Positions 5,699 to 49,100 of a DNA stretch of 64,000 bases are shown one piece after another. Source of the stretch: Saccostrea echinata (taxonomy: Eukaryota); assembly GCF_033153115.1 (NCBI RefSeq), contig NW_026889801.1, positions 8,804,001 to 8,868,000 of the forward strand. The letters are read 5' to 3'. The notes beneath the pieces were generated by a model. It had not been told where the DNA came from. It did no database searches and saw only the letters and a list, made by a program, of their open reading frames with translations. The position numbers and the translations under genes were made by a program. Numbering within the stretch: position 1 is the stretch's first letter; each line of letters starts with the position of its first letter.

Positions 5699-6051
5699 AC
5701 CGTCACGGTACATGAAGACCAGTCGGTAGAGCGCTCGATCTGTGATCGGAAGATCATGAGTTCGTATCTCGGCCGCAACTGACCTAAGTCGATAAAAAAT
5801 TAGGTAGCAGCTGTTCCTTCGCCAAGCGCTCTGCACGTGGAAGTGAAAGTTGCGGGTCCCTCGGATATGACCTTGAAAACCGAGGCCCCTCTGTCACGGA
5901 AGGCATTGGCACGATAAAGATCCCTCACTACTCAATAGTCCTGAGTGCAGAGTAAAGTTTTAAATCTGAAGCCCTTCACCGGTATATGGTGATATCTCTA
6001 TATGAGTGAAAAAATCTCAAATGTCACGTAAAACAACATACAATCAATCAA
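5699..6051 (+). mobile_element. tRNA-derived SINE (Meta + Deu/Nin central domains), older copy
   Basis: Degenerate A box and B box (GAGTTCGTATC), central AAACCGAGGCCCC..GGCACGATAAAGATCCC, (CAAT)n tail, 13-bp TSD TCTTTGCTTTTAA at 5686-5698 and 6052-6064. Colinear with the copy at 36573. Confidence 0.85.
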
Positions 6052-9134: not shown

Positions 9135-9432
9135 GTCGCCCGCGTGGCGCAGTGGTTAGAGCGTCTGCTCTAGAGTCGAAGAGTAAGGAGTTGATCCTTA
9201 CGTAGCGGGTTTGAATCCCACCTTGGGACGTGGAGACTGGTCCTTCGGATGAGACTGTATAAACCGAGGTCCCGTGTCACAGTAGGTGCTGGCACGAAAA
9301 AGATCCATCTTTGCTCAATGGCCCTCAATGCCGAGTATAGGTCAAAATTTTGCAGCTCCTCGCCGGCAAGTGGTGACATCTACATATGAGTGAAAAATTC
9401 TCGAGAGGGACATTAAACAACAAACAAACAAA
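9135..9432 (+). mobile_element. tRNA-derived SINE with a different head and Deu/Nin domain only
   Basis: A box TGGCGCAGTGG, B box GGTTTGAATCC, then GGTCCTTCGGATGAGAC..AAACCGAGGTCCCGTGTCAC..AAAGATCC and the same 3' tail (GAGTGAAAAATTCTCGA) as the other SINEs, ending in (AAAC)n. Confidence 0.85.
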
Positions 9433-11380: not shown

Positions 11381-11657
11381 AGTGAATCAAATTCTTTACT
11401 TTAGTGAATCAAAGTCTTTACTTTAGTGAATCAAAGTCTTTACTTTAGTGATTCAAAGTCTTTACTTTAGTGATTCAAAGTCTTTACTTTAGTGATTCAA
11501 AGTCTTTACGTTAGGGAATCAAAGTCTTTACTTTAGTGAATCAAAGTCTTTACGTTAGTGAATCAAAGTCTTTACTTTAGTGAATCAAAGTCTTTACTTT
11601 AGTGAATCAAAGTCTTTACTTTAGTAAATCAAAGTCTTTACTTTAGTGAATCAAAGT
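11381..11657 (+). repeat. 22-bp minisatellite (AGTGAATCAAAGTCTTTACTTT), about 12.5 copies
   Basis: Near-perfect tandem copies read directly. Confidence 0.95.
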
Positions 11658-19176: not shown

Positions 19177-20017
19177 GTGTTTGTGAAACACTGATGCCCC
19201 TGTATGGCAGCTCATGGCGAAGTTAAATTTTCTCAAATGCAAGTCAAACTCCAAGATCAAGAGATCAAAAATAGTGTTACCCAAAGAAAATACTTGTGTC
19301 AATGGATATACCTAGTAAATAATAAAGTCCAAGCACCAGTCATTCTAAAGTCGTGGTCAAGATTAATGTTTTATAAAAGTGGGTCATACTCCAAGGTCAG
19401 GGTCAAAGGGTCAAAATTATTGGTACGCAGGGGAAGACATTGTCAAAAGAAATACACATGCAAAATATAAATACCCTAGCTTTAAGTTAAAGTTTTTCAA
19501 AAGAAGGTCAAACTCCAAGGTCAAGGTCAGAAGGTCATACTTATTGGTAACCAAAGGAAGGTCTTGTCACAAATATTATACCTGTGGAATTTGAAAGCCC
19601 TAGTGCTAACCGTTCAAAAGTAATGGCCAAGGTTAAAGTTTTTTTTAAAGTGGGTCAAACTCTAAGGTCGAGGTCTAAAGGTCAAAAATATTTATACCCA
19701 CGATAAATACAAGTGAAACATGAAAGTCCAAGCACCAAATGTTCAAAAGTTATGGCCAAGGTTATAATTTTTTTTTTTTTTTTTTGGCAAAAGTGGGTCA
19801 AACTCCAAGGTCAAGATGTCAAATATATTGGTACCCAAAGAAAGGCTTTGTCAAAAGGAATACACATGTGAAATATGAAAGCCATAGCTCCAACCAATCA
19901 AAAGATATGGGCAAGGTTTAAGTTTTTGCGGACAAACAGACACACAGCCAGACAGACAGACGGACGGAAGGGCAAAAAACTATATACCCCCAAATCTTCG
20001 ATTGCGGGAGCATAATA
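19177..20017 (+). mobile_element. Helentron-associated element carrying a tandem array of about 125-bp repeats
   Basis: 5' GTGTTTGTGAAACACTGATGCCCC; repeats with AAGGTCAAGGTCA..TTGGTA..CTTGTCACAA..GAAATATGAAAG..AAAAGTTATGGCCAAGGTT; then (ACAG/ACGG)n and a 3' hairpin region ending CATAATAA. Confidence 0.75.
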
Positions 20018-21598: not shown

Positions 21599-23050
21599 AA
21601 CAAGATGTGTTTGTGAAACACTTATGCCCCCGTATGGCAACTTATAGCGAAGGTTAAACTTTTTCAAATGCGAATCAAATATATGTTGGTACTCAAAGTA
21701 AAGTCTTCTCACAACAAATACACTTGTGAAATATGAAAGACCTAGTACCACCTGTTCAAAAGTTATGGCCAAGGTTCAAGATTTTTAAAAGTAAGTCAAT
21801 CTCCAAGGTCATGGTCAAAGTTGTTGGTATCTAAAGGAAGGTCTTGTCACAAGAATTACATATGTGAAGTACGAAAGCCCTAGCCCTAACCTTTCAAAAG
21901 ATATGGACAAGGTTAAAGTTTTTTAAAAGTAGGTAAAACTCCAAGGTCACGGTCAAAGGGTCAAAGTTGTTGGTATCTAAAGGAAGGTCTTGTCACAAGA
22001 ATTACATATGTGAAATATGAAAGCCCTAGCCCTAACCGTTCAAAAGTTATGGCCAAAGTAAAAGTTTTTTAAAAGTAGCTAAATTCCAAGGTCAAGGTCA
22101 AATGGTCAAAGTTGTCGGTATTTATAGGAAGGTCTTGTCTCAAGAATTACATATGTGAAGTATAAAAGCTTTAGCCCTAACCGTACAAAAGTTATGGCCA
22201 AGGTTAAAGTTTTTTAAAAGTAGGTCAAACTCATAGGTCAAGGTAAAAGGGTCAAAGTTGTTGGTATCCAATGAAAGGTCTTGTCACAAGGATTACATAT
22301 ATGAAGTATAAAAGCCTTAGCGCCAACTGTTCAAAAGTTATGGCCAAGGTTAAAGTTGGGTAAAATTTTGCAAAAGTGGGTCAGACTCCAAGGTCAAGGT
22401 CTAAAGGTCAAATTTGATGGTACCCAAAGAAAGCTCTTGTCACAAGGAATACACATGTGAAATATGAAAGCCATAGCCTCAACCAATCAAAAGTTACTTC
22501 ACAGTGTAATCCTTGTGACAAGACCTTCCTTTGGATACCAACAACTTTGACCTTGAAGTTTGACCTACTTTTGGAAAACTTTAACCTTGGCCATAACTTT
22601 TGAATGGTTGGTGCTAGGGCTTTCATACTTCACATATGTGATCCTTGTGAAAAGACCTTTCTTTGGATACCAACAACTTTCATCCTTTGACCTTGACCTT
22701 GGTGTTTGACCTACTTTGGAAAACTTTAACCTTGGTCATATCTTTTGAACGATTGGTGCTTCAACTTTCATATTTCAGCTGTGTATTTCTTGAGAGAGGG
22801 CCTTTTCCTTGGGCACCATTACTTTTGACCATTTGACCTTGACGTTTGACATACTTTTGGGGAAAAAAAACTTTAACCTTTTCCATATCTATTCAATGGT
22901 TGCTGCTAGGGCTTTCATATTTCACAGGTTTATTCCTCGAGACAAGACCTTACTTTGGGTACCAACATATTTGATTTGCATTTGAGAAACTTTAACCTTC
23001 GCTATAAGTTGCTATACGGGGGCATCAGTGTTTCACAAACACATCTTGTT
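21599..23050. mobile_element. Fold-back composite of two oppositely oriented 5' halves of the same satellite-bearing Helentron-type element
   Basis: Begins AACAAGATGTGTTTGTGAAACACTTATGCCCCCGTATGGCAACTTATAGCGAAGG and ends with its near-exact reverse complement. Repeat orientation flips at about 22500. Confidence 0.85.
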
Positions 23051-37100: not shown

Positions 37101-40100
37101 ATGCCTGATAACACTACTAACAACAGTATTTTGAATTATTTCAGGGAGGGGAGGGGGGAGGGGTAGTAAAGAAAGATACCGTGGCGGGAATTTCTGATAA
37201 CTTATAATTTTATGGTATCATCCAGTTGGGTTTACATGTAATTAAATCATATACATGTAAATACATGTAGGGGCACTATCTAGAGCGTTAAAAGCTTTTC
37301 AGCAACATCCCAAATAATTTACAGCCTTTATGACGTCACAACTGACGTATTACTAGTAACGTCATACATAATGACCTAGTCATAGTAAAAACCACAAAGT
37401 TTTTCCAGACATTTATTTCAGAAAATGTATGTAGTTGACTATTTTTCACATTTAGCGTTTTAAATGAACAATTTACTGATTTTCTAACATATTTTGTGAA
37501 ATTTATATTTTTTTATTATTACATGAATTGAATGTAAACGATTGATCTACAAATTAAGGATTATTTGATCCATCAAAATTTAAATATAAAATCAAATTTC
37601 ATATTGGCCACAGCCACGAACAACAACGATATTAAACATAAAAATTTATATCGGTAATATCTATATCTATGGGAAGTATAAAAGTTGTTCTTGACTGTGG
37701 CCACTATGAGGCGCCGTTTTGGTATTTACTGCCAAAAAGTGATATCACCTATTCGAATAAGTGATATCACCTATTCGAATAGGTGATATCACCTATTCGA
37801 ATAGGTGATATCACTCATTCAAATTGAATAGGTGATATCACCTATTCGAATAGGTGATATCACCTATTCGAATAGGTGATATCACTTATTCGAATAGGTG
37901 ATATCACCTATTCGAATAGGTGATATCACCTATTCGAAATGAATAGGTGATATCACCTATTCGAATAGGTGATATCACCTATTCGTGCTGAATAGGTGAT
38001 ATCACCTATTCAAATAAGTGATATCACCTATTCGAATAAGTGATATCACCTATTCAATTTGAATGAGTGATATCACCTATTCGAATAGGTGATATCACTT
38101 ATTCGCATTTCTTACAACAACAAATAATGAATGCTCCCTTCCTCAAGATTATCTAGATTTTCATTGGAACCAAGCAAATTCGGGCTGCGTTAGGGTCTGT
38201 AAGTCTCGTCACGTGACTCGCGAGATTTTTCGATAATATTAACTTCCAGGTACCTCACACATGGAGATGTGTATTGGGTTAAGCATGTTTATCAGTCTAG
38301 ACGAACTCCAAAAACAGCGTTTCCGGAAGTAAGAAATTGAGACTGAAAAAGACTCCGAAAATCGAGTCCGCGCATGCGCACACACACAAAAAATGGCGAT
38401 TTTTCGGCAAAAATGATGGGTCTACAAAAACTGTCCGTGCAAAGTTTTGGAAAGTATGGCAATTATATCAGTACTCAGAAATGCTAAATAAAAGACTTCG
38501 GAAGAGATCGTATTTGTCAGATTTTTGATTTTATTTGCAAAAAAGGAGATATTTACTTTCAAAGTTAACGTTTCAAGTCAGATCAATTACAGAGAAAATT
38601 ATACGTTTTGAGAAGTAAATATGCATAATAAAAGGGATATATATGCAAAATGGGACAATATATATTGTAACTGTTAAAAACTTGACTGAATTTTACACAT
38701 AAATTAGCATTCTGGTTTTTTATTTGTGTACGACATCTGAATTGAACGCGTAAGTTTTTACCATCGTCATTTACTGATATACGAACATATATTATTATGA
38801 AAACATTTTTAAAACTATTATCTATCAATATGAAGACTTTAAAAACCACTCTTTTGGATATATTAAGGGCACAACATGTCTTCTAAAAATGAACCCGTTA
38901 ATATCTCTGCTCCGTGGTGAAAAATGCGCATTTTCTGATTAAAATGAATACAAGTTGCGTGTCTTCAAAAACAAATAAAATTAAGCACCTTTATTGTAGG
39001 AACGACATAAAATTTAAATCAAGGAGACAATAAATTAAATAAGAAAATATTTCTTACCGGCAGTATTAAATTCGATGTCGTATATCCAATTCACTATTAT
39101 GCAAGAGTTTGAAGCAATAAATAAGTCAATTTTCACAAAATAATTTAATAAATGCAATTATCCATTCAACAAAAAATAAAATAAAGTAATAATGCACTAA
39201 ATCCACAATTATGCAGCCGTATATTTGGAGAAAGCGAACGACAATCCATCGTTTGTTTATATCGGACGCCATTTTGCCGCAATGCATGATGGAGCCAAAG
39301 ACTTCGTTTTCGGAGTTCACGCTGTTTTTGGAGTTCGTCTAGACTGTTTATGGTTTACACAAAGCGTATAAGGAAAGTTTAAGCAGTTGTACAAAGCCGG
39401 AGGGTTCTCCGACTTACGATGGATAAATTGAGGGTCGTAAAAGCTTGGGTGCGAGCAAGTAGGAGGAGAATTTCGATCGAAGTACAGGTAAACAAGTCAG
39501 AGAATGTCACCTGCTTCTTGGGTATTCTTGGGTGAAATAGAAGTCTTATATTATACATTTGTATCTGAATAGAATAGTTTTGTTATCATCATTCCAACTA
39601 ATTTATTAACAGATTTTTCTTGAATTCGAGGATAATGATGTTATTACCAGCTGATTAAGGAGGAGTAGTGTAAGTGTCAGATGGGTACGAACGTCATCTT
39701 GTGACAGCATCACCTTTGTTTGGGTAAATAATTTGTTCAGAATACGCTTCATTTATCAACAAAAATTTAGCTGTTGCATGTCAGTAGGTCTAGTTTTTTA
39801 AGTATTCAATGTTTGAAAGCACTTATCAGGTCCAGTACAATCTTTTGATTTAGCTATATATATAGCTTTATTAAGCTGTTCAGAATAGCTTAATTTAGCT
39901 ATTTTATCACACTTTTTCTTAAATGTATACTTTTCTCAGCATGCACAAAAAGTCGCACCTTGCATAGGCACTCCCCAGCTTAATTGTTAAAAAATATATA
40001 TCTACTATACTATAAAGATAGTATAGTAGATATATATTTTTTAACAATTAAGCTGGGGAGTGCCTATGGCACCTTGGTGCAGTGATGATACTCAACCTTG

Positions 40101-43100
40101 AACTCATCTGAAATTGATGCTTTTAAAACTCACTCATTAAAATCTCCTTGCATACATGTGATAATTTTTAGGCCCAAATACTGTACAGCAGTCCTCAAAA
40201 TACAGGAATTTGGGTGAAAATGCTGTACATTGTTCATCAAAACTAAACAAAAAACTGTAAAAAAAAAATATTGACCAAAAGTCAATGTAAGAGGTTCATT
40301 TTTTAAGCTCTTCAGAGCCAAAGGCCCAAAGAGCTAATGCTATGGCCATTTGTGCGGTGTGCGTAAACTTTTTAGAATATGGGCCATAACTCAAGAACCC
40401 TTTGGCCAATTATTGTCAAATTTGTCACAGGGTATCCTTGGGCCAAGGGCTTCCGTTTATACTAAAACTAGGGTTGTGACCCTTAAACAAGTGGAGATAA
40501 TTAGGAAAATAGAAACAAAAGAGACTTTGTACTCTAAGTTCTAAAAGTTTTTGGGCTACATATGCAATTGATACAGATACTTCTTCAATGAATTTATAAA
40601 GGAGGCCAATTATGGTCAACAAGATAATTGATTAATTCAGTACATTCAATGAGAAGCAATCATACTTATCCATGCCTCAATGCACACAAGATAGTGGACA
40701 GTTACTCAAATAATAGAAATTTATCTTTTGCTTAAAAGTAATCAAAAGTTGCAAAGTTGGAGCTATTGATTTTGCTTGTTGTTTCGATAGCCCATAGCAC
40801 ATATATGAATAGTCAAATACATGCAACTTTTTGTCTATTTCTTACCAAAATAATTTTGGTGAAAAACTGCATATAAATAGCTAAATCAAGCTATTTTGAA
40901 TAGCTTAATAAAGCTAAATGGCTATTTCAAGCTATATAGCTAAATTAAGAGATTGTACTAGACCTGCTTATTTCCCAATCCCAACGATAAAACTTTCTTT
41001 ATATATTCTGCAAATTCTCTCTGCATCTATCATTGAACAAAATTCATATGACTGCAATTATATGACCATATTCTTCAGTTTAGAGAGCATGTTATAGAGG
41101 ATATTTTGGTTAAAGTTCTGGTCTGTTTCATGCAGTGTTTGAAATATTCTTTCATCTTACACAATTGTATACATTAAGATTTATTTTATAGCTAAAGTAC
41201 AAGAGAACTGCAGCATCTAAGACTACATGTACATCGACTTTGAATAATCTACCCGGTATATCCTCAAAAAGGCAACTCAAATACAGGTATGAAATTGATG
41301 TCACAAAATAAGTTTTTGGACTTACATTTACTCTTATAATTCATATACATATAAAGCATATAAAAAATAAAAATAGAAAAGATCGAATTAAAGGTTCATC
41401 AGGTGACAGCTCAATCATGTATGGAATATTATTAGGCCAAATAAAAAATATGTGTGGTTCCCAGTACCTGACCGTCTCTATTTTAGATCCCCGACCCTAA
41501 ACTTTTTTTCGGCAATATTCATATTTATTTTCCAGAATTTTCCACGATTTCCGTCATCCACTTCGGTATTAGTTTTAGTTCCAGCAATGGCAGCCTCCAT
41601 GCAAAAATCGTTTCAACATGTAGTGCAAGTGTTTGATGGTGTTAAATCTAAAGCAAGCTAGCATGGCGTGGCAATATACCTTTTTCCAGCGCCATGTTTT
41701 TTTGTTTGTTTGTTTTTTGGTTGCCAAAATTAAATAAATATGCCCAAGAGTGGCGAGATTCAGTTAGTTGCTCTGTTTACAGCTGGTTTATAACAAGTGC
41801 ATGCTGATTAGCCCCTTTATTATTTAATGCAAGCAAAGGTGTGAAGTCAGGATAGGAAATCACTTCTCGCTTGAAAGCACACATACAGCTGGCCAGGTAA
41901 CGTTTTTTGGAGTTAGGGGGAAGATAACATGAGAAAACATTTATTTGATTGCATTGATTACGCAAGAATTAGCCCAATGTGTAAGATAGATTAACTTGTA
42001 AACTATTAAATAATTTATATCAGGATCATTTCTTTTAAACCGAAAGTAGAAAAAAAAACAGTTCATGAGGAAAAGTGAAAAAGAAGACTGCTGATTTTAC
42101 ATGAATAAAGTCAACTTGCAAAACACCAATACATATGAGAAATGAGCTTGGAAGTATGAAGTCTTCAATGAGGCAAAAAGGTTTCATAAAAGGATTTAAA
42201 ATTTTAATAATATTAAATATTTGTAATTCTGACAAATTTGAATGATTCTATGTCATCTTGCTTAGGTGATTTATTTTGTTTTAAACATTACTGTACAAAG
42301 TGTAGGTGTCACATTCTTTTCCTCCGACAGCTCTTAGCAGAACTCTCATGTCCGTTTTCTAGTTTATAGTTCAGAATTTATTATTAAGTAAAATAAGAAC
42401 TGTTCTGGATAAAAGTAATTAATTAATTTCATTTATAAACACTGATTTTAAAAAAATGATGTTCACTTTGGACTTTATTTTTTACAAAAAGAAAAGATTG
42501 TGTTTTCATTATTTTTGATTTAAAAATATTTGTTTCATATTCATAACTAGGGTGCCCCCTGCCAATGTTGACTAGTATATTTAACACCACATCAAAATGC
42601 CACTTATTTTCTCCTTCACTCTGTTCATCCACAAATAAAACATTTCTTTTCTGAACCATAGTTGGAAAAGACTGAATTCAAAATAAACAAAACATTTATT
42701 AGTTATGAGTTATATACTCAGCTCTTCACAAAATATTTCTGATTTTTCGCATTCTATAATGTACAATTTTAGATTTTATATACCTGTATAAAGACTTCCG
42801 CAGCAGATTCCGATAGAGAAATCATGATCTATATTTAAGATTTAATGTATAATGCTTAAGATATCCATTAATTTTACTTATAATATACAATTCTGAAATT
42901 AATATCGTCCTTTAAAAACAAGGATAGCACATATCATCTTCGTAAACACTTAACATTCTAAAAAAAGAAAATATAATATCCAAATAACAGTTAAATAATT
43001 CAATTTGCTCATGCTGGTTTTCTTCAAACATTGTATTTTCTAGATGAGTATGAACTCGAATGAATAGAATCGGCAAACAACTGTTTAAATACCCAAGACA

Positions 43101-46100
43101 TTTTATTCACACATTAAAGCACATATCTAATCCATATGCTTAAGAGAAAACATATCTAACACTCTACACATAAAGTAGTTCACTTATGCTAATGAAAAGA
43201 AATAGGTATTATTTAGAAAAATTTAGAAAATCATTTTGTACAAAAAAAAAAAAAAAAAAAAAAAATCCCTACCTACCCTATTTTTTTGGAGGTGTAACCG
43301 GAACCACACATATTTTTTTGTTTGGTCTTAATGCTGAGTTTCCAAATGCAAAATTGAGGATATTCGATATATTCCATACAAGTTGTCAATCATTTATTAG
43401 TGATTTATACAGAGGTTCATTTGCATATAAATGTTGATAACATTGTTTTACTGTCTTTATTAACTTGTAATACTAAATTTTATGAATTGACAAATTCATT
43501 CTTTTTAGAAAGTGCATATAATTTGGAAAAGAGACCATCAATCCACTGGGGGGTATCGCATGAAAGCAATGATTATAGAATATTGTAAGGCTGGAGGAGT
43601 TATAGTACAACAGGCAGGCAAGTAATGGTACTTTGTTCTGGAAATTTTTCGCCCCAGTTTTATTTTTCTCATTCTGCCCTCCTTACAAGTAGGTGAATTT
43701 AAAACGGGACAGATTCGAAGAAGGCAGCATATATCTTTTAAACACAAATGTGTCTGATCAAATTTGAAAAGGGCAAAATTGTTTTCAAGGGTGAAAGAGT
43801 GAATATTTTAAAAATTAGAATGGGGTGAAAATATCCAATAATACAGGTTATATGTATTAACACAGTACATATGCATTTCTCTTTTCTTTATAATGAAAAT
43901 AATTTGTTCTGTAAAAGGACAAATTTTGTTCTGATTTGTATCAAATAAATAAATATGTGCCAGATTTATTATTTTGCAGGCACCTAAGTTACCATCAGTT
44001 GTGTGTCAAGCTGTGCAAAAATTCTATGTCATGTTACAGAATCTTTCTTAAATACAGGTATATGTCTGCTCATCTGGCAATCTTAGGACATCACTGGATG
44101 GTTTTGTTTAAAAAGATTACAGAGTTAACACACACTTCCAGCATGAAGACCAGCCAGTTGCCTCACCTGTCCTGACATTGTTAAAGGTAAATGGTCCTTT
44201 CAGAAAAGGATCTGACAATGCAAAGGCTTGCTAATCAATTAAAGATTTCTATTTACTAATAGGTAATTAATTTGAATTTCTGTAGCTTAAAAATTTAATG
44301 ATATGAATTTAAAAAAAATATTTTAATCAAAATTATTTTTATTTCAGTACTTTGTGACCAGTGAAAAGACATGGCTTTAAATTACTGTATCAGAGATCAA
44401 TCCAGGTTATAAATCTGAGGAAAACAATAAAGCATCCACTTCGAGCTACTTATATCACTGCCTTAATAAGATGTCTGCATGTGTAACTAACAAAGGACAG
44501 TGACCAGTTGTAGCTATGATATCAGAGGGCATCCTGAAAAACACTCATCACTAAGAATAGAAAACTTCAAATGACTTTTGTATCAATCCTTTTGAATTTC
44601 ATCTGGCTTGGAATTTCAGTAGCCTTTAGCATCCTTCAAGCATTTCATGAAGTACATGTACCAATTTGCAGGCATAAAATGTTTGAAACAGATTGCTTGT
44701 CCCAAATAAAAAAAAAAATAATTTCTCTGCCAATTAACAGTGTCATAAGCAGTTGATTGATATCACAGTTCCACTGGCATAGTATTTGTGGTTGAATGGT
44801 GCCATTTTTAAGAAAACTTTTCACAAAAACCTGGAAAACATCAGATGGAAAGGAGCATCTACAAGAAAAACAGTTAACACTTTCTTGAATATTAACAATG
44901 ATATATCATGCCCATTTACATCCTTTATATAAACTAATTAACCTAATCATAGAGAATTATGTACGAATTTGTCCTTTTGTGTATTTATAGTGTATTAAAT
45001 TGATTTTACTAATTTATAAATATTTATGTTTTTCACAGTCATTAACATTTACAAATAGAAGTACATATAACATAAAAATATTACATGTTTAGTACGATAA
45101 CGTGAAATTGTTATACCACAAAAACCATCGCTAACCTCACCTCGGTCAGCAATGGTTTTTAAGGGGTAAGAATTTTACATCACCCAAAATAAACAAGTAA
45201 TATTTTTCTTGTCATAAAATGCATTTTAAAGAAAACATCAAGGTGAAACGAATATGCAAACTTTCTGCACAGTTAACATTTTTTATTACTGTATATACTG
45301 TTACCCGTAGTCATGCATTTTCAACCATTTGGGATGTAATGTTTGGCATACAGTATGGTAATAGTACTTGTTAACAAATGTTTTTTAAACCAATCAAATT
45401 TGACTATTTAACATGAAAGTGTATCATAACAAATTTATCTAGCATAATGGTGCTGTAAGTAACCATGGAATGTGAGCTTGTGTGAACTTGATCCTGAATT
45501 ATTAAGTTTTGATATTGTAAAAAAGAATTGTGCAGCCTAAACTTTAACTTCTACCTGATTTAAATGGAGTTCCGTCATTAACAGGTTGGAAGTTGTCACA
45601 CTCTTCATGAGTATAATAACTGGGGGATCTGCTTCATTTGCAGATACATGGATAACACATTCACTCAAAGCACTGTCCCTTTTTCAGTACCTTGTGCAGC
45701 CCTGTAATATATAATGACAAATGGAGAAAAATGCCTATTTCAAGAAAAAAAGTCTGTCTCATAATTGTAGGAGTATTGGCAAAGGGGTTTGTATGTGTAA
45801 ATGAAAAAAATGTCTTCTTCTTTGTAGAATAAAAAATGATTATTTTTTGAGTGTGTGTGACCATTTTTATTTCCGAATAGACAGGGCAGCTTATAGCCTA
45901 CAGAATGAGCTGACCATTTTTGTTTATTGTAGTAATTAAAAAAAAAAAGAATGTGTTTTCTACAAAGATCATATGTTATAGACGTGGTATTCAATTTTGT
46001 ATTCCCATGGTCGATGCATTTGGGTACATCTATTTTTTTATTTGCTTTCAATGACATCGCATTCAATATCCCAAACTCATGTATACCTGTCCAATACTCC

Positions 46101-49100
46101 AAATTATACCACTGTAAGCTAAGTCAATGCTTTAAATTTATGAAACCAATCTGTAGATAAGCGTACCTTTTGAATACAGGCGATTTTAGCATAAAAACGA
46201 TTTAATTTTCCCTTTTTGCTTAAGTATGTTGGCTAATCTTGGCCCCCTCGGAATAGCTTGTGTTTGCGTTATGTAATGAAAAAATAAAGCAATTAAACGC
46301 TATTTACCTGCATCTATCAATCCACTTTCTCCTCTTCTTTGCAACAATCGGGGATCAAAACAAACTACAAGTTTAATAATTCCACTGCGATGCTTACAAC
46401 TTAAGTAATCCATTGTCTCCAAGAACGCTCAGGTACCCGGGAGTTATAAAACGAAAGTGAAAGTCAACGAGACTTACAGACCCTTTGAATTTTCCTATAG
46501 TATACATGATAGATAAGTGTAATAAATATAATTTGTGAGCAAAACAAACAACAAATTCTACTGGGGTGCTTAAAACTAAATGCGAAGCTGTAATCCATTG
46601 TCTGCAAGAATGGTAAGTTATAAAACGAAAGTGAAAGTAAATGAGACTTAAAGCTATAGTCTTGGGAGCAGTTGTTATTTCATAAATAGTTTGAATAGGT
46701 GATATCACCTATTCAAATAAGTGATATCACCTATTCAAAATGATTAAGTGATATCACCTATTCGAATAAGTGATATCACCTATTCGAATAGGTGATATCA
46801 CCTATTTGATTTGAATAGGTGATATCACCTATTCGAATAAGTGATATCACCTATTCAAAAGGAATAAGTGATATCACCTATTTGAATGGGTGATATCACC
46901 TATTCAAATAGGTGATATCACCTATTCGAATAAGTGATATCACCTATTCGAATAGGTGATATCACCAATTCAAATCGAATAGGTGATATCACCTATTCGA
47001 ATAGGTGATATCACTTATTCGAATAGGTGATATCACCTATTCGAATAGGTGATATCACCTATTCAGAAGCTGAATAGGTGATATCACTTATTCGAATAGG
47101 TGATATCACCAATTGAATAGGTGATATCACCTATTCGAATTGGTGATATCACTTTTTGGCAGTAAATACCAAAACGGCGCCTCATAGGCCACATCTAACT
47201 TTGGGAAAATCTGTCGAAAAAACGGCATTTTTTAACGTTTTTATGAAACCGTCGCATTTTCCAACCGTCGCACGTGTTTAATGGCGCATTATATAACGAT
47301 ATAAGTTATGTATGGAAAAGAAGGATGTTGTCCTCTAATATTTAAGGTATAGTACTCTTCTTGAACCGAAACTTTATTTTTGTGAAAAACACAGGGCCAA
47401 ATATGATGGTTCGTGGCTTTAGCTCTTTCTGAATCCTCCAACATTTTTTTTTTTTTTTTGAAGTGGATAGATCCTCCCCCACCTCCCTTTTGAAAAAAAA
47501 ATCTTCGTTCTGCCATATAAAGGAGTGATATGAAATCATCAACAACACAAGTTACAGAAAAAAAATAAAATTAACAAGATACTGATATTTGAGATACCAA
47601 ACAAACTTAACGTAAATACTAACCTTGGTGAGTGTTCCTTTAGATGCTTGACTAAAGACTGGACAAAAAAGGATCCCTCCCTCTCATCCCTCATAGACAT
47701 ATACCCAGACATGGTGGAGTGTGCAATCAGAAAATCCGCCTCAGCTGACGCAAGATCCAGCTGAGGCATTCCACCAAGTGAGGACACAGGCTGGAACCCA
47801 AGGTTACTTGGAGGGCTTCCAGTGGCCATGTTCAGGGATGGATGCCTCCTTTGAATAGAAGAAAAGTAGGAAAGAAAGGGATTAAGGTTACTCATCTGGG
47901 ATGGTGAAGGCATCCTGAGTGTTGGACCAGGTTCAGAGACCTCAGATGCTTCTGTCCCATTTGGAGGTAATCTGATAATGTCAGACTCTACTGGGGTGGC
48001 TATAGGTGTTCTATGCCAAACTGTCAAAGAAAAACAAGGAATTTATACAGTCAAACCATGTTGTTTCTAACTTAATGGGACCGAAAAAACAAAAACTTTG
48101 AGATACATGCATAATTATGTACGGATTTATGATATCGAGGTTAAAATACACAGTGTTGGGACATCCATCTCATTCTGAAAATGCAGGGAATTTAAGATAT
48201 CATTAATGTTGAAGATATCAATTTCAATAGCTGCAATAATGTAGCCCTCTCCGATTTTTTTTTATCTGATATTTTCTGGAGAGGCAATAATGTAGCCCTC
48301 TCCGATTTTTTTTTTATCTGATATTTTCTGGAGAGGGCTACAATTCCACAGCATCTCTGTAATGAGTGCGGGACGGTTCACCCCTAAAGACCATTCGCGC
48401 TGAGACGTTTCGCCCTCAGACGGTTCGCGCCGAAGATCAATTAAATTAATTATGTGGCAATTATCACTTGTTAACAGCAATTATTAAATTCTTAATAACT
48501 TTTGCATTGTGTTATTTCAATCCAATCCATTGGTTCAATCAATAAAACCAATTTATATGGGATAAACTAAAGACTCAATTGACTTACTAAAGACTTGACA
48601 TACTGAAGACCTGATTGAGATAATTTTGCCTGTATGGGGGTAATATTGATAACAGATGATGCTTACCAAAATACACTTTTAGAGAATAAAAACTGAGAAT
48701 TTATCTCTATATCATGCTATATACCCCCCCCCCCCCCAGCCCATAACCATACTAAAAAAAAATTTAAAGAAATTGTCAGACCTGATTTTTTTTCTATGAA
48801 TTCCTGTTACTTAAAAAAAAGTAATTTCTAAATGACCTGATATTTTTATATGACGTGAGACAACAGCAACTCGTGATTATTTTAATGACATGATGAATTT
48901 TAAAAAATGATCTATTTTGGTATAACAGACATAGAAATAAATTAAGGTATGTCACTTGTGAAATTAGTTATATTAAAGATTTTTTGGAGAAGTATATTTT
49001 TGATAAGTACTTATATAGCATTACTCAAAATCGCAAAGAAAACTGGAGTTAGTGTGCATCCTATAGAGCAACGGTAAAATGAACTTGACCTTTTTGCACT

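What the first reader, a model, noticed from the sequence alone, without database searches (positions are those of the whole stretch)
37739..38105. Tandem array built entirely from two alternating palindromes, punctuated by short variable inserts
Seen: the unit GTGATATCAC + CTATTCGAATAG is two perfect palindromes, so the array reads the same on both strands and can fold into hairpins or cruciforms at any register. Every 3-5 units the CTATTCGAATAG centre is expanded by a different short insert (CAAATTG, GAAATG, GTGCTG, CAATTTG on the left; CAAAATG, GATTTG, CAAAAGG, CAAATCG, CAGAAGCTG in the right array 46693-47152). The 22-bp period is about two helical turns. Inference: these could be phased binding sites for a dimeric transposase or accessory protein, or scars of hairpin opening and repair. 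They could also be a dsRNA source within the caspase pre-mRNA.
Basis: partly seen in the sequence, partly recalled or inferred. Interest (0 to 1): 0.7.

Follow-up and report, generated by a model that had tools for sequence, protein, structure and literature searches.

The report
Palindrome-array ends of IS3EU transposon
The palindrome array is the left end of a young, multicopy jumping-DNA element with no detectable transposase gene, lying in a predicted intron of a cell-death (caspase) gene; its repeats are likely docking sites for a borrowed transposase, and because they read the same on both strands they likely let copies collapse into tiny array-only remnants.

Summary
The array is real. 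It is the subterminal block of the left inverted end of a 9,482-bp DNA transposon (37705-47186) with TA..TA termini. 32 of 33 closed copies have an exact 6-bp target duplication, and the genome holds 274 such ends. No transposase was found in it. IS3EU transposase elements in the same genome have the same end layout, often with their own 21-23-bp palindrome arrays, so this is most likely a non-autonomous IS3EU/GingerRoot element, not a MULE.

The inserts are inherited family features, the same from copy to copy, not repair scars. The core TGATATCA is invariant and is shared with a divergent sister family. Cores are 20-22 or 26-27 bp apart, never 23-25 (0 of 97). Insert order does not improve helical phasing.

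Twelve distinct array-only mini-copies exist. Contigs from three studies show a five-intron spliced form of the family's interior with no long ORF.

The scan noted similar IS3EU end arrays on other DNA before, and probably this same family, filed near MULE. Verdict: a modest new variant of a known kind.

The parts
37699..37704 (.). Left target-site duplication (GGCCAC)
   Evidence: Same 6 bp follow the right end; 32 of 33 unique closed copies have an exact 6-bp duplication
37705..47186 (.). Whole non-autonomous DNA transposon, 9,482 bp, TAT..ATA termini
   Evidence: Copies in the genome begin at 37705; closed copies of 6.8-9.5 kb align across the interior; 139+135 end matches, 0 in the control
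37705..37738 (+). Unique outer 34 bp of the left terminal inverted repeat
   Evidence: Identical to the reverse complement of 47153-47186
37739..38105 (.). Left subterminal array (the finding): 16 invariant cores, eleven 22-bp and four 27-bp units
38076..39487 (+). First exon of the family's spliced form (38076-38285 joined to 39345-39487); interrupted in this copy by the nested insertion
   Evidence: Contig pieces and joints in runs X1, X3, X6; boundaries
38286..39344 (.). Nested ~1.06-kb insertion found only in this copy
   Evidence: Absent from all 20 copies; no copy aligned matched it; skipped by contigs of three runs
39613..39723 (+). Exon 2 of the spliced form
   Evidence: GT..AG joints
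39963..40068 (.). Small foldback-shaped insertion found only in this copy
   Evidence: Gap in the alignments of other copies; ends printed
41192..41286 (+). Exon 3 of the spliced form
   Evidence: GT..AG joints
43509..43617 (+). Exon 4 of the spliced form (followed by a GC..AG intron)
44058..44186 (+). Exon 5 of the spliced form
44348..45160 (+). Last exon of the spliced form (3' end not defined)
   Evidence: Joint; contig cover to about 45160 (mapped)
45555..46570 (-). Weaker convergent spliced form from the right end (joints near 46307>45700 and 45555>44858)
   Evidence: CT..AC joints on the clean copy L046: the first in 3 of 4 runs, the second in 1 of 4 (mapped)
46693..47152 (.). Right subterminal array: 20 invariant cores; thirteen 22-bp, one 21-bp, four 27-bp and one 29-bp unit
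47153..47186 (-). Unique outer 34 bp of the right terminal inverted repeat
47187..47192 (.). Right target-site duplication (GGCCAC)
47624..48020 (-). Caspase-8-like exon upstream of the host intron
   Evidence: Peptidase_C14 hit E 3.8e-09; donor GT after 47624; X1 contig piece 47623-48020
34172..34325 (-). Predicted last coding exon of the caspase-8-like gene, downstream of the host intron
   Evidence: In-frame join gives a caspase-like C-terminus and a stop; X3 contig piece ends at 34324; lower bound estimated from the translation

Best explanation
The array is the subterminal repeat block of one end of a 9.5-kb DNA transposon with no detectable transposase gene, most likely of the IS3EU/GingerRoot superfamily, and its invariant palindromic core TGATATCA is likely a repeated binding site for a transposase supplied in trans. 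Shown: element limits, TA..TA ends, 6-bp duplications, about 137 copies, conserved core, inherited inserts. Inferred: a transposase dimer loads on the cores about every two helical turns and helps pair the two ends, while cleavage occurs at the unique outer 34 bp. The 27-bp unit is likely an old variant, older than the split from a sister family, spread in both orientations by unequal exchange within and between the arrays; its length (about 2.5 turns) may be tolerated where 23-25 bp is not. Because the unit reads the same on both strands, the left and right arrays are also direct repeats, so in-register recombination or slipped gap repair between them likely deletes the interior and leaves array-only mini-elements, much as LTR elements leave solo LTRs.
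For: Ends and target duplications: 32 of 33 unique closed copies have an exact 6-bp duplication and no longer one fits. IS3EU is defined by TA..TA and usually 6-bp TSDs (PMC10045372, passages; also PMC6839031 and PMC12730594, passages).

Same layout in autonomous-type elements: 6 of 6 rva_4-transposase elements for which I located both ends have TAY..RTA-type ends and 6-bp duplications. Their transposase cores match the IS3EU cores printed in the supplement of PMC10045372 by eye. At least six such families carry arrays of 21-23-bp palindromic units just inside the end.

Core conservation: 0 of 360 core bases vary in the window, against 16 of 288 bases in 12-bp spacers (p 2e-6). A 1.27-kb sister MITE and two metagenome contigs keep the terminus and TGATATCA but have different spacers, and also have 26-27-bp units. 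Of 97 spacings, 76 are 20-22 bp, 0 are 23-25, 19 are 26-27, and 2 are longer.

Collapse: 12 distinct array-only copies (194-615 bp) have perfect duplications and no interior sequence; 8 of 12 read as a left-type insert followed by a right-type marker. 8 of 24 end pairs are under 700 bp, against 1 of 26 in families with non-palindromic arrays (p 0.009).

Precedent: subterminal repeats raise transposase binding and excision in Muta1 (PMC5499845, passages).
Against: No autonomous partner with these ends was found near about 72 of the 150 listed rva_4 matches (382 candidates), and a profile of 11 local transposases finds no remnant in the element. Membership therefore rests on ends, TSD and layout only.

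Binding was not tested; a host factor could be the binder. Units are related by duplication, so the p-values for core conservation overstate independence. The 23-25-bp gap could come from simple copying of one old variant, and other IS3EU families do use 23-24-bp spacings. No phasing gain from insert order in this family.

Only 3 of the 8 short pairs in the frequency test were read as sequence, the two groups differ in age and size, and both lists are the first 100 places only. One closed copy (L102) lacks a duplication.
Confidence: 0.7

Rival explanations
1. The arrays are neutral minisatellite-like expansions inside the inverted ends, grown by hairpin-driven slippage and homogenised between ends; only the outer 34 bp matter for transposition.
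For: Unit number varies among copies (7-19 per array). Array-only and shortened copies exist. Palindromes favour slippage and template switching (established knowledge). No phasing gain.
Against: The core is invariant while the spacer drifts, both within the family and between sister families. Arrays of about two-turn period recur in many unrelated IS3EU families with different unit sequences.
Confidence: 0.15
2. The cores bind a host transcription factor and the arrays act as inward-facing promoters or enhancers, driving the spliced non-coding form that starts at the inner edge of the left array.
For: Five-intron joints in contigs of three studies, with a contig reaching 38076 at the array's edge. 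A weaker convergent spliced form comes from the right end. Splice dinucleotides are intact in 11 of 12 copies. The core contains GATA on both strands (sequence).
Against: Contigs cannot show start sites, strand or level, and no run is on record as RNA. Exons are barely more conserved than the rest (0.7% vs 0.8% divergence). The spliced form may be the relic of a decayed gene of the element. This reading does not exclude the transposase role.
Confidence: 0.1
3. The inserts are scars of hairpin opening and repair made during transposition.
For: All inserts sit exactly at the centre of the TTCGAA palindrome, a possible hairpin tip.
Against: Inserts are inherited unchanged across 56 arrays, nearly all have the same length (+5), and most are 0-2 changes from one another. 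They do not copy the flanking letters as P-nucleotides would (sequence; established knowledge).
Confidence: 0.03

Closest known systems
IS3EU/GingerRoot DNA transposons (PMC10045372, PMC6839031, PMC12730594; passages read; supplement of PMC10045372 searched for three terms)
   Same: TA..TA termini, 6-bp TSD, long TIRs, multi-kb size, non-coding members. Same end layout as local IS3EU transposase elements.
   Different: No transposase or second ORF. TIRs of 400-495 bp built of palindromic units. The terminus reads TATGA, not the TAYGG reported for rust-fungus IS3EU. The passages read describe no subterminal palindrome arrays, no array-only derivatives and no spliced non-coding form.
Muta1 of Aedes aegypti, a type 2 foldback MULE (PMC5499845, passages read)
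   Same: Terminal motif plus subterminal tandem repeats, which were shown there to raise transposase binding, cleavage and excision. The best functional model.
   Different: 8-9-bp TSD, 12-bp non-palindromic repeats, different transposase superfamily.
Solo-LTR formation and microhomology-mediated MITE birth (solo LTRs recalled; PMC3814204 seen as a search listing only)
   Same: Loss of the interior between homologous stretches, leaving the ends and the target duplication.
   Different: Here the homology comes from inverted ends that are also direct repeats because the unit is palindromic. Each mini-copy read has its own length, so they are not one amplified MITE family.

Membership tests
IS3EU/GingerRoot | TA..TA termini | tested here: met
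   TAT..ATA in 32 of 33 closed copies; one has TTT at one end. Definition.
IS3EU/GingerRoot | 6-bp target-site duplication | tested here: met
   32 of 33 unique closed copies
IS3EU/GingerRoot | Terminal inverted repeats longer than 30 bp | tested here: met
   34-bp identical outer repeat plus 371-nt arms at 90%
IS3EU/GingerRoot | TAYGG..CCRTA terminal pentamer (reported for rust-fungus families) | tested here: not met
   Terminus is TATGA. This pentamer is stated for one fungal set, not for the superfamily, and local IS3EU families also deviate (TACGA).
IS3EU/GingerRoot | Integrase-like DDE transposase, in the element or in an autonomous partner with the same ends | tested here: inconclusive
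   None in the element, as expected of a non-autonomous copy. No partner found near about 72 of 150 listed rva_4 matches.
IS3EU/GingerRoot | Mobilisation by an IS3EU transposase | not testable with these tools
   Needs a transposition or binding assay
MULE (foldback type, Muta1) | 8-10-bp TSD | tested here: not met
   No duplication longer than 6 bp fits in any of 33 copies; definition
MULE (foldback type, Muta1) | Long TIR of terminal motif plus subterminal tandem repeats | tested here: met
Polinton/Maverick and Ginger2 (other 6-bp-TSD groups) | AG..TC termini (Polinton) or TG..CA termini (Ginger), as written in PMC6839031 | tested here: not met
   Termini are TA..TA; definitions
Transib/RAG-like transposons | CAC termini with 5-bp TSD (recalled) | tested here: not met
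   The CAC before the left end belongs to the 6-bp duplication; other copies have other flanks

The most novel reading that the evidence does not exclude
IS3EU ends are quantised protein lattices. A palindromic core is kept at 2 or 2.5 helical turns and never in between, the self-complementary lattice lets elements collapse into 'solo-array' remnants that seed the genome with hairpin-forming binding clusters, and its inner edge launches a spliced non-coding RNA that the family needs or that regulates its transposase in trans.
Probability: 0.15. Interest if true: 0.65.

Novelty: new variant of a known kind. Interest (0 to 1): 0.38.

Why it matters
IS3EU/GingerRoot is little studied, and I found no description of its end-recognition sites in the papers searched. 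This genome offers several transposase families, each beside its own 21-23-bp array, so a transposase-to-array specificity test is easy to set up. The palindromic unit also gives a simple, testable route to tiny deletion derivatives. For the host, a 9.5-kb element with strongly folding ends makes up about 70% of the predicted last intron of a caspase-8-like gene. None of this is a new class of system.

Tried and rejected
Coding capacity: no ORF over 104 aa in the majority sequence of 12 copies. No Pfam hit over cut-off in 54 of 99 short ORFs of a clean copy (the other 45 were not scanned) or in 5 interior ORFs of the window copy. No hit with an 11-sequence IS3EU profile, while the control locus scored 417 bits. 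No tblastn hit of six second-gene ORFs. The spliced form has at most 72 stop-free codons in 12 copies (one search had one exon boundary off by one base and was redone).

Autonomous partner: not found. The piece of this family in L152 is a truncated right end nested in another IS3EU family. A 49-bp match to autonomous elements lies in a small inverted repeat unrelated to the ends. 46 of 48 metagenome pattern hits had no core array and were dropped.

Helical phasing by insert order: not significant for this family; 1 of 20 tests reached p 0.033 (sister MITE at 10.4 bp/turn), uncorrected. Rfam: only a tRNA-like match at 36578-36650, outside the element.

RNA: no RNA holder listed on record. A-to-I editing cannot be judged from contigs. 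The caspase joint 47624>34325 was not among the joints shown (318 rows hidden). No empty-site allele was shown. Run X19 gave none of the listed splice joints.

Literature: IS3EU+HECT 0 papers. Non-autonomous DNA transposon+spliced+lncRNA+oyster 0. IS3EU+tandem repeats+terminal inverted repeats gave 3 papers, none seen to describe end arrays (listings only, apart from passages of PMC8268682). Searches showed no such description in listings. Repbase entries and most subscription papers are not searchable, and the supplements of PMC6839031 and PMC12730594 were not read, so the arrays may be recorded there. Look-up of earlier findings by sequence gave nothing.

Full report
Observation. The array is present as described: 16 cores GTGATATCAC separated by 15 spacers at 37739-38105, and a second array of 20 cores at 46693-47152. 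Both parts of the unit are perfect palindromes, and the array folds far better than any of 100 shuffles (z -34.6). The inserts are +5 bp at the centre of the spacer in all four left cases; the right array has four +5, one +7 and one -1 unit. Long units recur every 2-5 units.

What it belongs to. Outside each array lies the same 34-bp sequence in inverted orientation. A genome search showed other copies beginning at window 37705 with unrelated flanks. The element spans 37705-47186 and is flanked by GGCCAC on both sides. Of 33 unique closed insertions, 32 have an exact 6-bp duplication and none a longer one; termini are TAT..ATA. A 36-base end pattern matches 139+135 times, with 0 in the control, i.e. 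about 137 elements. Twelve full copies are 98.0-99.7% identical over shared columns. A second subfamily of about 9.4 kb is 92-97% identical to the window copy. The window copy has two private insertions (38286-39344 and 39963-40068).

Host context. Exons with DED and Peptidase_C14 matches lie on the minus strand at 54.7-47.6 kb. Joining the exon that ends at 47624 to an acceptor at 34325 continues the frame to a caspase-like C-terminus and stop. The element therefore lies in the predicted last intron of a caspase-8-like gene. Contig pieces end at both borders, but the joint itself was not among the rows shown.

Classification. The passages read define IS3EU as TA..TA with usually 6-bp TSDs and place GingerRoot in the same lineage (PMC10045372; PMC6839031; PMC12730594). 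The genome has 150 scored matches to rva_4 (PF24764). Their cores share the motifs of the IS3EU cores in the supplement of PMC10045372, compared by eye. All 6 such elements for which I located both ends have TAY..RTA-type ends and 6-bp duplications. Many carry an array just inside a 35-50-bp outer end. At least six families have palindromic 21-23-bp units; others have non-palindromic 18- or 21-bp units. The finding is thus one example of a layout common to IS3EU in this genome. MULE, Polinton, Ginger and Transib fail on TSD or termini. The element has no transposase remnant, and no partner with its ends was found near about 72 of the 150 listed matches. Membership rests on ends and layout.

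Inserts. Across 56 arrays, 232 of 238 inserts fall into nine types at fixed positions, and the 5-bp types other than GTGCT are 0-2 changes apart when either strand is allowed. They are inherited variants, not scars. In the window, 0 of 360 core bases vary against 16 of 288 spacer bases; units are related by duplication, so the p-value (2e-6) is optimistic. A 1.27-kb sister MITE with the same terminus and 6-bp TSDs keeps TGATATCA but has an A/T-run spacer and also has 27-bp units. Two of 48 metagenome hits are further relatives. Over these four array sets, 76 of 97 spacings are 20-22 bp, none 23-25, 19 are 26-27, and 2 are longer. Other IS3EU families do use 23-24 bp, so the gap is specific to this clade and could be historical. 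The order of units does not improve phasing over shuffled orders in this family.

Consequence of palindromy. Because the unit is self-complementary, the two arrays are direct as well as inverted repeats. Twelve distinct copies of 194-615 bp consist of the two outer ends and array only, with perfect duplications and no interior 16-mer. Eight of the 12 show a left-type insert followed by a right-type marker, and all differ in length. Six of the 12 were fetched because they were short, so this is no frequency. Among listed ends, 8 of 24 adjacent pairs are under 700 bp, against 1 of 26 for families with non-palindromic arrays (p 0.009). Only 3 of those 8 were read, and both lists are partial. Array-only copies also occur in another palindromic family (L092) and in a metagenome relative (L289). 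Recombination or slipped gap repair between the arrays is the inferred route.

Spliced form. Contigs from three studies (runs guessed or labelled 'DNA?', none on record as RNA) show five joints in the interior, four GT..AG and one GC..AG on the plus strand, with a contig reaching 38076; a large DNA run (X11) does not show them. They skip this copy's private insertion, so they come from other copies of the family. The joined form has at most 72 stop-free codons in 12 copies, and exons are barely more conserved than the rest. Two weaker minus-strand joints come from the right end. This may be the relic of the two convergent genes seen in autonomous elements or a non-coding RNA; contigs cannot give start, strand or level.

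Mechanism. Shown: limits, ends, TSD, copy number, conserved core, inherited inserts, array-only derivatives, spliced joints in the family. Inferred: the cores are binding sites for an IS3EU transposase dimer supplied in trans, by analogy with the subterminal repeats of Muta1, where more repeats gave more binding and excision (PMC5499845, passages). Degenerate IS3EU-like copies being moved in trans is reported for Styx (PMC10853768, passages). I put about 0.9 on the classification and about 0.6-0.7 on the transposase-site role.

Novelty. My searches found no printed description of palindromic end arrays in IS3EU, but Repbase and many journals are not covered. Earlier notes of this scan report similar arrays in IS3EU elements of other genomes, and what is probably this family on another contig, filed near Muta1. 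They are unchecked notes and not independent support. Verdict: new variant of a known kind, interest 0.38.

Noticed in passing
L136:4697-6613, L140:1739-3667, L141:476-2275, L145:767-2743, L150:6311-8320, L151:7739-9868: ORFs of 600-710 aa with a weak C-terminal HECT (E3 ligase) match lie convergent to the transposase in several IS3EU families with a similar transposase type (3 of 6 over the Pfam cut-off). A search for IS3EU with HECT found no paper.
   Followed up: partly
L087:410-1915: A complete 7.55-kb IS3EU element (TSD TAAACG) carries a second ORF with weak SAM and FYVE matches; the transposase of a related family (L086) has a weak N-terminal SAM match.
   Followed up: no
window 46453 and 46627: Two copies of an interferon-response-element-like word (GAAAGTGAAAGT; consensus recalled) lie in a ~174-bp duplicated stretch just inside the right array, also in both other copies checked.
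   Followed up: no
L117 (G000:C25:15987504): An array-only mini-copy is inserted into the GATATC core of another copy's array, duplicating it.
   Followed up: partly
L112 (G000:C22:14628667-14630905): Three head-to-tail repeats of the element's right end with the same 6-bp flank, about 1.1 kb apart.
   Followed up: no
L051-L054, L072, L073: A young rva_4 family (96-99% identical, ORF up to 530 aa) for which no terminal repeat or array was found within about 15 kb of L051.
   Followed up: partly
window 36578-36918, 5720-6050, 9239-9431: Three copies of a tRNA-derived SINE-like repeat.
   Followed up: no
window 19220-19962 and 21684-23010: Arrays of a ~146-bp satellite-like unit, partly in inverted orientation.
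   Followed up: no
window 11381-11657: An unrelated, non-palindromic 22-bp minisatellite, 12.6 copies at 95%.
   Followed up: no
L009 and L018 (G000:C62 and C24): The same mini-element insertion with the same flanks on two contigs, suggesting a duplicated segment or an uncollapsed haplotype.
   Followed up: no
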